NCBI GenBank assembly: GCA_037381445.1 | Contig: JARRQT010000128.1 | Coordinates: 1 to 9,557, forward strand | Reading direction: 5' to 3' | From: Calditrichia bacterium | GTDB lineage: Bacteria > Calditrichota > Calditrichia > RBG-13-44-9 | Length of the DNA: 9,557 bases | In this document: in pieces, positions 1 through 9,000 of the stretch | Position numbering within the stretch: position 1 is the first letter of the stretch | How the letters are laid out: every line of letters starts with the position of its first letter | Made by a program: the position numbers

Positions 1-3000
1 GCAGATATACCAGCAAGAGGGACTCATTGGTCGATGTCGTGACGGCGGTTAATCCGTTGGATTATTCATTCATTGATATTTTTTCCGATACGCTTTCCCA
101 TACTGTACCTCAGTCGATTAGGCTAAGCCTGGATACTGCAGCTGCCGATGTCAATAGCATGGAGCCGGCGCTCATTGTAAATAGAACCAGATCACTTTCC
201 ATCAGCACGGTTAAAAGGACCAACCTTGTTATGAATGCGGAAGCGCCGGAGGCCGTTACCCAAAATTTCCAATTCAGAATTGGCGCGGTCGTCAGAAATA
301 TTGGTTCCGCCAATGTTCTGGATAGCAGCAAAGTGTGGGTCAAAATTGATACCGCAAATTCGGGATTCCGCTTGCTGAGTCCCGACACAACGCTTGCGAC
401 GATTGGCGACTCGGTTTTCTGGAATATCAATAGTCTTCAAAATGCCGGTATGCATTCACTGGGTGTCTCTATCCTGCGGGCAAATATTTATGATGAGAAC
501 AACTACCCGGACAGCCTGGTTTATATATCAAAAGCAGACACTGCCGTACAGGTAAATGTTTCCAGCCAGCAGGCCATATCGATTTCATCTCTGGTATTAA
601 CCAGCCTGGTTTTCCCGACGCCAAACGATAGTCTGCTGGCATCAACCGGGCAGGGCGAAATCGCGTTGCAGATGGGCGCGGCGCTCAATCCCGTTTTTTC
701 GCAAAACCGGTTTGCTTCTCTGATTTTGCCCGCCGGAACTGGTTTTTCGAGTGACAGCAATCTGGTACAGAATATTCCATCCTCCGGTGTTGTCCGGTGG
801 AGCTTGAAAGCTCCCGCCGCGGCCACGGAGGATTACGTGAAACTAAAGGTCAGGGCGCAGGCAACCTCAGAAGTGAACGGCCAGACGGTGGTTGTGTGGG
901 ATTCTGTTTATATCAGGGTAATCAATCGAGCCATTCTATCGGTTAGTGGAAATATCATTTCTCCGGCAGGAGCGGTGGATGACACGGTTAGCTTTGGTCA
1001 GGAATTTGTCTACCAGACAATCATTAAAAGGTCCGGCGAAGCCGGCGTGTTGGGCTCGGGTATGCTGCGCTTAACTGCCGATTCGCTTTTATACATCACT
1101 GACGGAGGAAAAGCGAAATCTTTTGAAAAACCGTATGACCTTGAAAAATTCAACGCGGATACTTTAAACTGGAATGTCAGAGTTGACAGCAGTGCCCAGC
1201 TTACCAAAATTCTATCCAAAATTGGAATACTGCAGGCGCGGAAAACCGAGGCTATCAACCGGACGGCAATTCTGGATGGCAGTGGAAATATTCCACTTCC
1301 TGTTCCCGAGGCGGCTCAATTGGATGCGGAAATTAATTCTCTATACGCGCAGATTGAAAATATCATCAGCAATTCGAGCCTGATGTCCACCTTTGCCTCC
1401 AAGCCGAACGATGCGCTTACCGGCAGACCGGCTGATTCAAATCCCGATACGGTCATTACGCCGATTATTGTTCTGTCCAGGGCCGAAATTAAATTAAGCC
1501 CAGATATCGTAATCCGGAATATTGCCGGTGACAATATTGACACTCTCAGCACTAACCAAACCTTCAGCGTTCAGGCAAGTTTGGCGAGCGTAAGTTCACA
1601 GATTGCCTCACAGCGCACGGCGCAGCTCTTGTTCCCCGCAGGTTCCGATTTTCGGGTTACGGGCGTGAATCCCAAGCCGTTCAACGGCACAACCGTGAAC
1701 TGGGATGTTTCGGCGCCTGCTAATGTCGCCGGTCCGACGATTATCTCTCCCGTAAAAGTTATAGTCTGGGGAGTCGACTCGAATAGCGGTCAGACGATCG
1801 GGCCTGATACCACGGAGCGGTCCCTTACACTTGAACCGCAGGCAATCGTCGGGTTGCGGCTGGAGATTACCGATCCGGCTTCCGCAAGATTGGGCCGTTT
1901 ATCCTACAATCAGGAATTTACGGTCCGGGCCACGATAACCCATATCGGAAGCAAATTAAAGGGCGGAGGGAAGATCAATCTTAATATGAATTCATCGGAT
2001 TCTATCAGGGTACTCCAATCCGATCCCTATTTCCAGTGGCCCGATTCGGTAGTCACCTGGAGGCTAAAGACGCCAAATAAACGAATTACCAGCAGTATCA
2101 ATGTGAATTTTGCAGCCGGTTCGGTTCCTATTGATAAAAATAGTGGGCAGCCTGCGGCTCTGGATTCCCTGAACGGTGTGGCAAGTATCCCGGTTTTCAC
2201 GGAAAGATATAACCTGACGGTTTCCAGAATAGGTCAAATCCGGCCGGAAAAATTTAACCAGCAAAATTCCGAATTCCCGATCATGGGATTAATGGTCGAG
2301 AATAAACAGCCAGCGGAAGGAATACCGATTCTGATAAAAGGATTTGAAATAAAACTGCTGAATAACGTGGGCGGAGCTCTTTCGCAACCGGAAGTGTTGC
2401 TGCAGAAAATTACCATTGTAGATTCCAGTTACTACACATCACTGGACAAGCCCTCCGCGCAGCCGACGATATATGCGGACACTGTGATTTCGGCCGGCAT
2501 GTCAAATCCGTTTACATTACCGTTCAAGGAATTTATGCGGGTCGTGCCCATTGAGCAGAAGAATCTGATCGTGCTGGTTGAAACGGATGCAAGTTCTCCC
2601 AACAAGAGTTTCCGTTTGCAAATCGAGAAAATTTCTGCCTTTGAAGAGACGACCGGAAATGAAGTTCAGGTGGTGGATTCGGTCGGAAATCCATTCAACC
2701 CGCAGAGTGAACTGAGTTCCTCGGAACTGGTTACGGTCATTTCCTCGGCGAAGGAGAAAATATTCAGCAATTACCCGAATCCGTTTGGGATTGAGCAGAA
2801 TTATACCAGCTTTGTATTTTGGATGGACGGACCGGGATCCGCTGAAATCCGGATCTATACGTTGCTCGGCGGCCTGGTTTATTCCCACAAAAAGAACCTG
2901 CCTGCAGCCGGGCTTTACGACGGTGCGCTGCGATGGGATGGCGTGAATAATGCCGGAAATCGGGTGCTGAACGGGGTGTATATTGCCATCATTAATATCA

Positions 3001-6000: not shown

Positions 6001-9000
6001 GAATCTCATCTTGCTTCTTCTGGGAATGCTTGCGGTGGGATATATCGGGTCATTTATCTTGATTACGCTTATTATGGATCCGTTCCATAAACTGGCGAGC
6101 TGGGTGAGGCAAGTGGGGCACGGCACTGTCGATGAAGATGAGCTTGATATTGATGCCGGTGATGAGCTTGGTGAAATCGCCCAGGCATTCAACGAAATGA
6201 CCACGAAATTCCGCGAAGCACAGGTCAACCTGATGGAACAACAGCGGATGCAGCGTGAACTGCAGGTTGCCCAGGAAATCCAGCAGATGCTTTTGCCTGA
6301 TGATTTCCCCGATGTGATCGGATATGATATCACCTCCTATTATCAGGCTGCTAAAGAGGTGGGCGGAGATCTCTTCGATTTTGTGGAAGTCGATGATCAC
6401 ACTATTGGTATTTGCGTTGCTGATGTCTCCGGGAAAGGAGTCCCCGGTTCCATGGTTATGACCATGATCCGGACCGCACTGCGCCTGGAAGCACGGGGTA
6501 ACAGCAGTCCCGCGGAGGTGCTTTCAAAAGTAAATGCCTTTATCACCGATGATATTCGCAAAGGCATGTTTGTTACTGCTTTTTATATCGTGCTGGATTC
6601 CCGGGAGCGGATGATCTCGTTTTCCAGTGCCGGTCACAACCCGATGATTCTCTACCGCGGAAAATCAAAGGAAACCTATTATCTGAATCCTCCAGGATTC
6701 CCGATTGGTATTACCCTTCCTGACATTAACCTCTTCAATAAAACGATACGCGCCGATAAAATTCGCCTCCACCCGGATGATATTTTGGTGGTTTATACTG
6801 ACGGCATCACAGAAGCCATGAATCACAAACGCGAACTATACGGGGAAGAGCGTTTCCTTTCTGCTATACGGCGTTACGGCAATCTGGATGTGGTAGATTT
6901 TGTGAAGAATGTGAAAGAGGATATTCTCAATTTCACAGGCGGCTACGAACAGAACGATGACATTACATTGGTCGCCTTCAAGGAAAATATGGATGCCGTT
7001 GATGTAAAAATTAAGATGTTTGACGATTTATTCAGGCTTGCCTCACAGAGTGATATTACCGTAGCCCAGGCCTGCCTGCAGATGGGTGTTTCGCAATCCA
7101 CCTATTACAAATATAAGAAAATATACGAAGAGGGCGGATTCCCCTACCTGCGGGAAATGCTCCATGGTTATACCAACGTGGGATTGAGGCATCTGAGTAT
7201 TGAGGTGAAAACCAAATTATATGATATCATTCGTGAACATCCCGATTACGGACCTAAGCGGATCAGTGATATGCTGAGTACCGAGAAATATGGTTTTATT
7301 GATATTTCCTCACGCCTCATTTACGATGAACTAAAAAGGGCAAAATTGAATCGCCGGAAACAGCGTGAAGTTTTTGTCCAGCGTGGCGGGAAACGGCGTC
7401 TGAAACCACCGGGAACCCCATTGCTTACCCTTGACGGGGAGGTAATGGTGGGATTCCGTTCAGAAGGGGAGGATAATATTCCTCCTGTCTTTTCTGTACG
7501 GGCACCTATATCGGATAAAAAGGGCAAAGAAAAGATTTTGACCGTGAGAGGAAAACGACTGGATGAAAACGGCGGAACCAATGGAAATAACGAAGAGTCG
7601 CTTCCCGAGGAAAACTCGGAAAATAATGTTGGTGAAATCACTTCAGCCGAAGTAATAAATTCCGATAATACTAAAAGCGGCCTGGAGAATGATGATAAAA
7701 AAGAAAGAAAAGTTGACTAGGAACCCAGGTCCTTGTAAATTTATGTTTCATGGTTACAGGTTAACATGAGATACTCTCATTAAAATCGGAGGGTGTAATG
7801 GAAGGCATTCAAGTTTCAACAGAGGTCGCGGGGAGTCAAAACCAGGTTTCTATCATTAAGGTAGGCGGGTTTATTGATACCACCACTTCCTCCGAGGTTG
7901 AACGAGCCTTAAACAGCCTTTTGAAACAAAACAGATATAATGTTGTGATTGACCTTGGAAATGTCGATTACATCAGTTCTGCGGGATGGGGAATTTTCAT
8001 CAGCGAGATCAAATCCATCCGGGAACAGAATGGCGATCTGAAATTGGTGCGAATGATACCTGATGTCTATGAGATTTTCGAGTTACTGGAATTCCACCAT
8101 ATTCTGGACGTGTATGATTCTGTTGAAGAAGCCGTTGATAAATTTGAGGAATCAATTCACAGGCCTGAGGGTGCTGCCGTAGCGCAACCGGCTATGCATA
8201 CTCACAGGACAGAAGGGAAGGCACCGGAAAGAGAATCGCGTTATTTTGATACCAAGACGGAAATCACGATCGAAGAAGAGGAAGAAGAAGGATTTCGGCA
8301 GGAAGGCAAGGAAAAAATTAAAGATCAATCTCCTTCTATGCGTTCATTGGAAGACAAGATTAAAAATATTGTTGCACATGAGCCACAACTTGGAGCCTAT
8401 AAAATAAATAAAATATTAAATACTGAAAAGTATGGCTACACCAAAGTTGGGTGGTTTGGCGTCCGCTCCGTGCTGAATCAATTAGGGCTGAGCAGCCGGA
8501 AGAACAGAAAAAATTTCGCGCAACAATTTTCCAAATAGAATGTTAAAGAGGGAATTTAGTTAATAAAAGGAATTACATTAATGGATGTTTTGGAAATTAT
8601 TTTTATTGCTATTCTTGGTTTCAGTGTCGTTTCAAATTTTTTGAGTATCCCCGGAAATTTTATTGTGGTATTTGACACGATTTGGTATGGATTGGCTACC
8701 AATTTCGATAAATTTTCATTTTCTTTCCTATTGATGTTGTTAATCATTGCCGTGGGTGTGGAGCTGTTGGAGTATCTGATTATTGCCTTTGGTGCTCGCC
8801 GCTATGGGGCCAGCCGCCTGGGAGTGGTGGCTGCGATTCTGGGCGGAATTGGCGGCAGCATAAGCGGATTTTTCGTGAGTCCTGTTTTGGGCGCCATTAT
8901 TGGCGGTTTTATCGGTGTTGTGATCGGGACGGTGAGTATCGAAATGATTCGCGGCAAATCGTTCCGGGATGCCGGCTATGCAGCACTTGGTGCCATCTTG

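What a model noticed while it worked through the whole genome (the two positions that open the first line are those of the whole stretch)
3..8538. Giant CTD protein, PorV-TPR fusion barrel and a membrane RsbW-RsbU fusion: a candidate cell-surface signalling cassette [...]
A giant secreted protein (probably >3000 aa over contigs C197 and C128, ending in a T9SS-CTD-like tail) is followed by a PorV-like barrel fused to TPR repeats (g02720), a membrane protein that joins an RsbW-type kinase domain, two hydrophobic segments around a ~160-aa loop, HAMP and a PP2C (SpoIIE) phosphatase (g02721), and a STAS anti-sigma antagonist (g02722); the same order is kept in two closed genomes of other families. 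I read it as a trans-envelope signalling device in which the state of a T9SS-anchored surface protein is passed through the PorV-TPR barrel to a partner-switching module that sets a sigma factor. It would be a new kind of cell-surface signalling, built from T9SS parts ra [...]
Evidence so far: g02719 (partial, 1015 aa) shares a 39-aa stretch of 100% identity with g03457 (2301 aa, runs off both ends of C197), so the two are probably one gene; its C-terminus ..NGVYIAIINIKDGSNKSYKTKIAYIK resembles the CTD-like tails of the cassette family. g02720: NCBIfam PorV/PorQ 3e-38 covering 43% of the protein, TPR_16/TPR_2 at 410-558, no hydrophobic window. g02721: HATPase_c_2 12-138, hydrophobic windows at ~161 and ~321-336, HAMP 346-396, SpoIIE 457-653. 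g02722: STAS 6e-20. Closed genomes G006 and G030: ORFs of 3107/2964 aa (26% identity to g03457), 638/632 aa (43-44% to g02720), 1201/1105 aa (51-55% to g02721), 236/234 aa (59-61% to g02722) in the same order and strand.
(Added by a program. Inside this text positions count along the whole contig: contig position 1 is position 1 of the stretch shown here. "Call 12" and the like, gene names such as g00115 and contig names such as C1 are that model's own, and its searches are not shown. The text may have been shortened before it was handed on; [...] marks where a part breaks off. The agent that wrote the report below was given it as the finding of a first reader that could run no searches.)

Follow-up and report, generated by a model that had tools for sequence, protein, structure and literature searches.

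The report
Surface-protein barrel wired to phospho-switch
Many little-studied bacteria keep the gene for a secreted surface protein, its own outer-membrane carrier with a long inward-pointing arm, and an inner-membrane kinase/phosphatase switch together as one unit, which looks like an undescribed way of reporting the state of the cell surface to the cytoplasm.

Summary
The cassette is real and much wider than reported. The giant protein spans three contigs (about 5,350 aa, join inferred).

Reciprocal test: in three other phyla, 73 of 80 informative PorV-like barrels with a long TPR tail are followed by a Cache/HAMP/PP2C-type sensor. This holds for 0 of 18 short- or no-tail barrels there and 0 of 23 other barrels in this genome. 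The kinase may be separate or fused at either end, and barrel and phosphatase trees track each other. Adjacency by chance is therefore unlikely.

Physical coupling remains untested. A sigma-factor output is poorly supported: no SigB/SigF-type sigma factor was found. A phosphorylation-gated STAS-HTH, like CapS, is likelier.

New here: a conserved CRP-box-like palindrome at class II spacing lies upstream of the operon in 28 of 30 loci.

The parts have precedents (SypE/SypA, CapK/CapS, PorV/PorP shuttles, NsrA-CyaK); I found no paper on the combination. The scan noted this cassette before on other DNA.

The parts
3..3050 (+). C-terminal 1,015 aa of a giant secreted Ig-repeat surface protein (about 5,350 aa over contigs C145, C197, C128; N-terminal signal peptide, NIDO-like stretch and Big_1 repeats lie in C145)
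2760..3047 (+). T9SS CTD-like tail (YPNPF...WDG.N..G..V.NGVY...KIA.IK)
   Evidence: CHU_C E 1.7e-4 and FlgD_ig, both below cut-off; PorU/PorZ CTD hits; conserved in relatives
3066..4979 (+). PorV-family outer-membrane barrel fused to a helical/TPR tail, 637 aa
   Evidence: NF033709 over cut-off; model pLDDT 87; best fold matches 8gl6_F and 6h3i_F, which are PorV
3150..4016 (+). beta-barrel domain, 14 strands by my count of the model, with N-terminal NPA hatch motif
4017..4976 (+). about 320-aa all-helical tail (long helix, then TPR hairpins); periplasmic by inference from the even strand number
   Evidence: T. pallidum FadL-like precedent PMC8407342
5024..7720 (+). inner-membrane sensor, 898 aa: RsbW-type Ser kinase - TM - Cache - TM - HAMP - PP2C - IS481-type HTH pair - variable tail
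5057..5437 (+). RsbW/SpoIIAB-type kinase domain; E49, N53, D84, G86, G110, G112 invariant in 61 of 61 rows
5549..5998 (+). extracytoplasmic single Cache domain; most variable folded part (mean identity 0.25)
6059..6211 (+). HAMP domain
6392..6982 (+). PP2C (SpoIIE-type) phosphatase; D449, D467, D593, G594, D645, D646 invariant in 61 of 61 rows
7031..7372 (+). two-part HTH module like the DNA-binding N-terminus of IS481 transposases; no DDE domain
   Evidence: NF033577 positions 6-114 of 284, E 4e-10
7798..8538 (+). STAS protein, 246 aa: STAS domain, variable linker, C-terminal HTH; predicted phosphoacceptor S61 (position by recalled analogy to SpoIIAA)
   Evidence: S60-S61-A62-G63 in 78 of 78 rows
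8341..8526 (+). basic HTH tail of the STAS protein, homologous to the second HTH of the sensor
   Evidence: 13 K/R against 4 D/E

Best explanation
A trans-envelope partner-switch unit. (1, inferred from T9SS biology) The CTD protein is secreted through the SprA translocon and is held on the surface by its own cognate PorV-like barrel, encoded next to it. (2, inferred; the weakest step) The barrel's periplasmic TPR arm contacts the Cache domain of the inner-membrane sensor, directly or through an adaptor, so loading, tension or loss of the surface protein changes the TM-HAMP signal. (3, domains and catalytic residues shown, activity inferred) HAMP output shifts the balance between the PP2C phosphatase and the RsbW-type kinase, which act on S61 of the adjacent STAS protein, as SypE does on SypA. 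(4, inferred) In this lineage the output is not a sigma factor but the STAS protein itself: its basic IS481-type HTH binds DNA in a phosphorylation-gated way, as CapS does. A paralogous STAS-HTH in the exopolysaccharide cluster is a probable second substrate. The likely role is to match adhesin display with surface and matrix programmes. The operon itself appears to be switched on by CRP.
For: Specific linkage: long-tailed barrels are followed by the sensor in 42 of 43 matches in the phylum of G077, 16 of 21 in that of G076 and 15 of 16 informative in that of G080. Short- or no-tail barrels: 0 of 8, 0 of 10, and 0 of 23 in this genome. In the 80 loci found with the STAS query, all 54 with a scored barrel domain have the sensor next. 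The core persists while everything else changes: kinase separate (L126, L127), fused at the N-terminus (here) or at the C-terminus (L324, L326, L329); HTH present or absent; downstream genes differ between Calditrichota and KSB1-like loci. Paralogous cassettes in one genome keep barrel and sensor paired; tree distances correlate (rho 0.37, within-phylum permutation p 0.0015, 75 pairs). Barrels with a different, 116-aa tail lie with TPR-ExbB-ExbD-TonB-like genes instead (C16, L253, L254; named by eye). The Cache domain has no invariant residue, which fits a co-evolving protein partner better than one fixed small ligand (inference). Catalytic and phosphoacceptor residues are invariant. STAS-HTH output has a tested precedent (PMC13373217).
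Against: All evidence is genomic; nothing here shows contact or signalling. Linked genes duplicate together, so the tree match does not prove interaction, and the deep nodes of the two trees differ. The barrel profile was built from sensor-linked barrels, and kin are not independent. Seven long-tailed barrels lack a sensor (L234, L275-L279, L325). Tail length varies from 163 to 372 aa among sensor-linked barrels. Four loci have barrel and sensor with no CTD gene directly upstream (L290-L293). Many cassettes lack the HTHs altogether, so the HTH cannot be the universal output. DNA binding by the HTH is untested, and the only conserved operator found fits CRP better. Two STAS-HTH loci lack the sensor upstream (L085, L098). 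PorM/GldM and PorN/GldN were not found in this 92%-complete genome, in searches whose controls also found nothing.
Confidence: 0.45

Rival explanations
1. Co-regulation without physical coupling. The sensor binds a small molecule through its Cache domain and controls adhesin and matrix functions (Sia/Syp-like). The TPR tail anchors or chaperones the barrel through another partner, and the genes stay together as an operon.
For: Cache domains usually bind small ligands (recalled). Seven long-tailed barrels have no sensor. One CRP-like promoter serves the operon. SypE/SypA control biofilm with no known barrel (PMC3610818 passages).
Against: The sensor never follows tail-less or short-tailed barrels, although many of these also sit beside CTD cargo (0 of 41). 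There are no invariant pocket residues in the Cache alignment.
Confidence: 0.25
2. Secretion feedback of the PorA-PorY type. The Cache domain binds the CTD of cargo that has not yet been exported, so the switch reports export or anchoring backlog rather than a surface event.
For: The CTD of PorA activates PorY in the periplasm (PMC12152298 abstract and Discussion). A CTD gene precedes the barrel in most loci, and the CTD is the most conserved part of the cargo C-terminus.
Against: It does not explain why only tailed barrels have sensors. L290-L293 have a sensor but no adjacent CTD gene. About 97 CTD-tailed ORFs in this genome would compete.
Confidence: 0.18
3. One reading: the same trans-envelope path, but the kinase domain is an anti-sigma factor and the output is release of a sigma factor encoded elsewhere (FliA would be the only group-3 candidate).
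For: The kinase matches RsbW/SpoIIAB models below cut-off and folds like them. Cassettes without HTHs need some other output. FliA is present.
Against: No sigma gene was seen beside the cassette in the loci read. There is no SigB/SigF-type factor among 12 sigma hits. The kinase is membrane-tethered, and the STAS protein carries a conserved HTH.
Confidence: 0.12

Closest known systems
SypE/SypA of Vibrio fischeri (PMC3610818; passages read)
   Same: One polypeptide with an N-terminal Ser kinase and a C-terminal PP2C phosphatase acting on a STAS protein; linked to biofilm polysaccharide.
   Different: SypE has a central REC domain. Here the centre is TM-Cache-TM-HAMP, both proteins end in HTHs, and the genes follow an outer-membrane barrel and its cargo.
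CapK/CapS (PMC13373217; passages read)
   Same: A GHKL kinase phosphorylates a STAS-HTH protein that binds DNA itself; no sigma factor.
   Different: CapS has a MarR/ArsR-like winged HTH and CapK senses DNA damage in the cytoplasm. Here the HTH is IS481-transposase-like, a phosphatase is fused, and the input is extracytoplasmic.
T9SS shuttle/anchor barrels PorV and PorP/SprF with PorE (PMC9143113, PMC12618676; abstracts and outlines read; structure 6H3I_F)
   Same: PorV-family barrel encoded beside a CTD cargo, probably its cognate shuttle or anchor; PorP binds a periplasmic partner, PorE.
   Different: A fused 160-370 aa TPR tail and linkage to a signalling module; the host lies outside Bacteroidota and PorM/PorN were not detected.
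PorA-PorY-PorX-SigP of Porphyromonas gingivalis (PMC12152298; abstract and Discussion read)
   Same: A T9SS cargo feeds into an inner-membrane sensor.
   Different: His kinase, response regulator and ECF sigma factor; the ligand is the periplasmic CTD and the authors find it independent of PorV.
NsrA with CyaK/CyaD1/CyaD2 of Sinorhizobium meliloti (PMC7529298; passages read); YfiBNR (search listing only)
   Same: An outer-membrane protein signals to an inner-membrane enzyme-coupled receptor.
   Different: Unrelated barrel or lipoprotein, cyclic-nucleotide output, no secreted cargo, no partner switch.
FadL-like TP0548/TP0859/TP0865 of Treponema pallidum (PMC8407342; passages read)
   Same: 14-stranded hatch-type barrel with a periplasmic helical extension bearing a TPR motif.
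   Different: Short three-helix extension, proposed for substrate transfer; no cargo or sensor described in the passages read.

Membership tests
PorV/PorQ barrel family (NF033709) | score over the curated cut-off and PorV-like barrel fold | tested here: met
   130 bits against 90; top fold matches are PorV chains
PorV proper (NF033710) | equivalog cut-off; barrel without a long C-terminal domain | tested here: not met
   43 bits against 250; 320-aa tail
PorV/PorQ barrel family (NF033709) | binds the CTD of a secreted cargo | not testable with these tools
   inferred only from gene adjacency
T9SS cargo | signal peptide plus C-terminal CTD | tested here: inconclusive
   signal-like N-terminus in C145; CTD-like tail but below the CHU_C cut-off, 22 against 27 bits
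Canonical T9SS | SprA/Sov translocon and PorU | tested here: met
   both over cut-off
Canonical T9SS | PorM/GldM motor and PorN/GldN ring | tested here: inconclusive
   no match, but controls also blank and genome 92% complete
Partner-switching system (RsbU/V/W type) | Ser kinase, PP2C phosphatase and STAS with intact catalytic and phosphoacceptor residues | tested here: met
Partner-switching system (RsbU/V/W type) | cognate SigB/SigF-type sigma factor | tested here: not met
   none in the cassette; none among 12 sigma hits (genome incomplete)
SypE-type bifunctional regulator | kinase and PP2C in one chain | tested here: met
SypE-type bifunctional regulator | central REC domain | tested here: not met
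   TM-Cache-TM-HAMP instead
CapS-type STAS-HTH repressor | STAS fused to an HTH | tested here: met
   the HTH class differs (IS481-like)
CapS-type STAS-HTH repressor | phosphorylation-gated binding of its own operator | not testable with these tools
   the only conserved palindrome found resembles a CRP box
IS481 transposase | DDE (rve) catalytic domain | tested here: not met
   only model positions 6-114 of 284 match; no rve hit

The most novel reading that the evidence does not exclude
An ancient class of cell-surface signalling, spread over at least six phylum-level groups, in which a T9SS-secreted surface protein is the antenna, its PorV-like anchor barrel spans to the inner membrane through a TPR arm, and a Cache-HAMP phosphatase/kinase sets a STAS transcription factor whose DNA-binding head was taken from an IS481 transposase: surface or contact sensing with neither TonB-dependent receptor, sigma factor nor His kinase.
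Probability: 0.3. Interest if true: 0.85.

Novelty: new variant of a known kind. Interest (0 to 1): 0.66.

Why it matters
It would give T9SS shuttle barrels a signalling role and show how bacteria outside Bacteroidota reuse T9SS parts. It also predicts a rule that can be tested: the barrel's periplasmic tail selects the inner-membrane partner (TPR tail with a sensor; short Ig-like tail with TonB-ExbBD-like genes). The cassette is near-universal in Calditrichota (full-length or contig-split sensor in 40 of 41 genomes), so it is a core trait of a widespread, hardly studied group. A record titled Caldithrix abyssi carries it (L048); that species has a cultured strain (recalled), and the kinase, phosphatase, STAS, Cache and TPR pieces can all be assayed in E. 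coli.

Tried and rejected
Complex prediction of the TPR tail with the Cache domain was not available, so there is no verdict.

Inter-protein covariation (MI-APC, 94 paired rows, effective number about 61) gave a top z of 7.2, against 6.3-8.0 in 12 within-cluster shuffles: no signal, and underpowered.

Apparent loss of the cassette in G002, G012 and G014 was rejected as a natural experiment. G012 has an N gap at the sensor's start, G002 and G012 still hold the start of the giant gene, and in G014 the sensor lies at a contig start.

RNA runs: no RNA holder listed. Consensus promoter and terminator scans of window 2900-9400 were near shuffle level (17 against 11.9 +/- 3.9; 12 against 7.5 +/- 2.2). 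A PDB sequence search with the HTH module gave nothing significant. An Atlas search of the small secreted protein gave only leads under 0.9 and an Ig-like fold. A contig scan with the Goldiibacteriota-type barrel returned only itself. The CRP-like site was not found at class II spacing in any of the 17 more distant upstream regions checked; two (L101, L102) had a one-mismatch box. A planned search of the phylum of G079 failed and was not repeated; only that one genome was read.

An active transposon or insertion artefact was rejected: there is no DDE domain and the HTH fusion is conserved across phyla.

Literature: 10 searches found no paper on this cassette. The library lacks most subscription journals, and I read no supplements.
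Full report
OBSERVATION. The window is contig C128 of a 5.1-Mb, 401-contig, 92%-complete genome; its closest named relatives are Calditrichota. Four co-oriented ORFs lie at 3-3050, 3066-4979, 5024-7720 and 7798-8538, with gaps of 15, 44 and 77 nt. The first ORF continues into C197 by an exact 119-nt overlap and, through a 918-nt overlap at 93% identity, into C145, which holds the signal peptide and Big_1 repeats. The summed length is 5,353 aa; this second join is inferred. Complete orthologues in 6 of the 10 regions fetched are 4,713-5,606 aa. Upstream in C145 lie a 164-aa secreted gene and a roughly 380-aa TPR gene, both kept in relatives.

Residues 670-783 of the sensor match the N-terminal part of IS481 transposases (NF033577 positions 6-114 of 284, E 4e-10) with no DDE domain. 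The STAS protein ends in a basic domain homologous to the second half of this module (E 6e-11; 13 K/R against 4 D/E). Both are conserved in Calditrichota and KSB1-like loci. A search of 1.84 billion representatives with the module gave 293 hits. Of 51 of the best 150 scanned, many are the same sensor; others are glycosyltransferase-2 fusions, STAS proteins and true transposases. The extracytoplasmic loop is a single Cache domain (model) and is the least conserved folded part (mean identity 0.25 against 0.70-0.80 for the cytoplasmic domains). Kinase and phosphatase active-site residues are invariant in 61 of 61 rows and the STAS SSAG motif in 78 of 78. The barrel model (pLDDT 87) has 14 strands by my count, followed by an all-helical tail; its best fold matches are PorV.

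IS THE ADJACENCY FORTUITOUS? Within this genome, 24 PorV-family barrels pass the cut-off and there are 20 PP2C ORFs; only the TPR-tailed barrel has one downstream (three barrels had under 2 kb of flank). Among 80 loci found with the STAS protein, 54 held a scored barrel domain and all 54 had the sensor after it. Most of the other 26 are cut by contig ends, and two (L085, L098) have the STAS without the sensor. The genes after the STAS differ between Calditrichota and KSB1-like loci.

For a reciprocal test I searched with the barrel alone. Phylum of G077 (named loci: Zixibacteria): 43 matches in 41 genomes, all long-tailed, 42 followed by the sensor or its start. Phylum of G076 (a protein named Ca. 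Goldiibacteriota): 30 of 33 matches retrieved; 16 of 21 long-tailed and 0 of 8 short-tailed have the sensor, and one is cut by a contig end. Phylum of G080 (named locus: Eisenbacteria): 27 of 28 matches used; 15 of 16 informative long-tailed and 0 of 10 short- or no-tail barrels have it, and one is cut. Totals are 73 of 80 against 0 of 18. Caveats: the profile came from sensor-linked barrels, genomes are related, and short-tail flanks were mostly 1.1-1.5 kb.

WHAT IS FIXED AND WHAT VARIES. The fixed core is CTD cargo, tailed barrel, TM-Cache-TM-HAMP-PP2C and STAS. The kinase is a separate gene (L126), fused to a STAS (L127, L142), fused at the sensor's N-terminus (here) or at its C-terminus (L324, L326, L329). 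Cargo ranges from about 620 aa (Malectin plus CBM9, L240) to 5,600 aa. HTHs occur only in the N-terminal-kinase lineage; some of its STAS proteins keep a degenerate tail where the sensor lacks it (scores 7-23 bits). Many genomes have two cassettes. For 75 barrel-phosphatase pairs chosen across groups, tree distances correlate (rho 0.37; within-group permutations mean 0.16, p 0.0015). Shallow clades match but deep nodes do not. This shows inheritance as a block, not contact. A sister cassette on C16 has a barrel with a 116-aa tail followed by a TPR gene and ExbB/ExbD/TonB-like genes (named by eye).

OUTPUT. The 12 sigma hits are, by sequence, three RpoD-like, one FliA and eight ECF-type; I scanned one RpoD-like factor and FliA against NCBIfam. 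There is no SigB/SigF-type factor. CapS shows that a STAS-HTH can itself be the phosphorylation-gated DNA binder (PMC13373217, passages). SypE shows kinase and PP2C in one chain acting on a STAS protein (PMC3610818, passages). A paralogous STAS-HTH follows an exopolysaccharide sugar transferase gene (C91), and similar settings occur in G002 and G012; in this genome its HTH is broken by a frameshift.

PROMOTER. Between the TPR gene and the small secreted gene, 28 of 30 loci have (T)GTGAY-N4-RTCAC, followed 21 nt after the 16-mer by TA-N3-T. If that hexamer is the -10 element, the palindrome is centred at -41.5, the class II CRP geometry (recalled). The strict pattern occurs in 39 of 71 genomes of the class (60 listed matches) against 4 control matches. 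The genome has one Crp-family protein over cut-off, best matching CRP, with SRET..R in its recognition helix. I read it as a cAMP-CRP site, not as evidence for the STAS-HTH. In other orders of the class the site precedes different genes.

MECHANISM AND RIVALS. Shown: anatomy, intact active sites, co-inheritance, and tail-specific linkage. Inferred: cargo anchoring on the barrel, tail-to-Cache coupling, substrate identity and DNA binding. I put direct or adaptor-mediated coupling with STAS-HTH output at 0.45, co-regulation without contact at 0.25, PorA/PorY-like CTD feedback (PMC12152298) at 0.18, and a sigma output at 0.12.

NOVELTY. Each part has a precedent: PorV/PorP shuttles, TPR-tailed FadL-like barrels, NsrA-CyaK, SypE/SypA and CapK/CapS. 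Ten literature searches found no description of the combination; the library is incomplete and no supplements were read. Earlier notes of this scan describe the same sensor and cassette in other genomes; they are unchecked and not counted as support. Verdict: a real, widespread, undescribed module; new variant of a known kind; interest 0.66.

Noticed in passing
G000:C145:7694-7736 (- strand; L343/L350), outside the window: Conserved CRP-box-like palindrome at class II spacing upstream of the small secreted gene and the giant gene; single CRP-like protein at C108:20662-21339. The same strict site precedes a single-domain response regulator at C54:20083.
   Followed up: yes
G000:C91:25146-25814 (L349) and C387:1820-2260: Paralogous STAS after an exopolysaccharide sugar transferase; in C91 the C-terminal HTH is broken by a frameshift; C387 is a near-duplicate cut by the contig end.
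   Followed up: partly
G000:C16:3113-16396 (- strand): Sister cassette: 2,113-aa CTD protein, barrel with a 116-aa tail, 1,020-aa TPR protein, then ExbB/ExbD/ExbD/TonB-like genes (named by eye); similar short-tail barrels occur in two other phyla.
   Followed up: partly
G000:C145:7776-8906 (L343); L111:13449-14573: TPR protein of about 380 aa with a weak RomY N-terminal-like hit (below cut-off); upstream of the cassette in Calditrichota, downstream of it in L111 and L113.
   Followed up: partly
L111:12377-13111, L112:10813-11550, L113: A ParA/MinD-type ATPase gene sits directly after the HTH-bearing sensor; in L111 and L113 the sensor also carries three fused STAS domains. It may position the complex in the cell.
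   Followed up: no
proteins P0067, P0076, P0090, P0105, P0117, P0125: The same transposase-type HTH module occurs in tandem at the N-terminus of glycosyltransferase-2 proteins (one named Patescibacteria), some up to 2,949 aa.
   Followed up: no
window 8581-9081 and 9334-9557, continuing in C69: DUF456 membrane protein, DUF4159 protein, a roughly 1,140-aa protein and a patatin-like protein (named by eye) follow the cassette in Calditrichota but not in KSB1-like loci.
   Followed up: partly
L079-L100 (KSB1-like loci): The sensor has a long acidic linker and a cytoplasmic C-terminal TPR-like domain; in other Calditrichota families it has a different helical C-terminal domain; in this genome it has neither.
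   Followed up: no
C145:2-919 against C197:1-918: The overlap is only 93% identical: strain variants in the assembly or a diverged internal repeat of the adhesin.
   Followed up: partly
L290-L293: Barrels with a 163-168 aa tail are followed by the kinase-Cache-HAMP-PP2C sensor without a CTD gene directly upstream; a minimal form useful for structure tests.
   Followed up: partly
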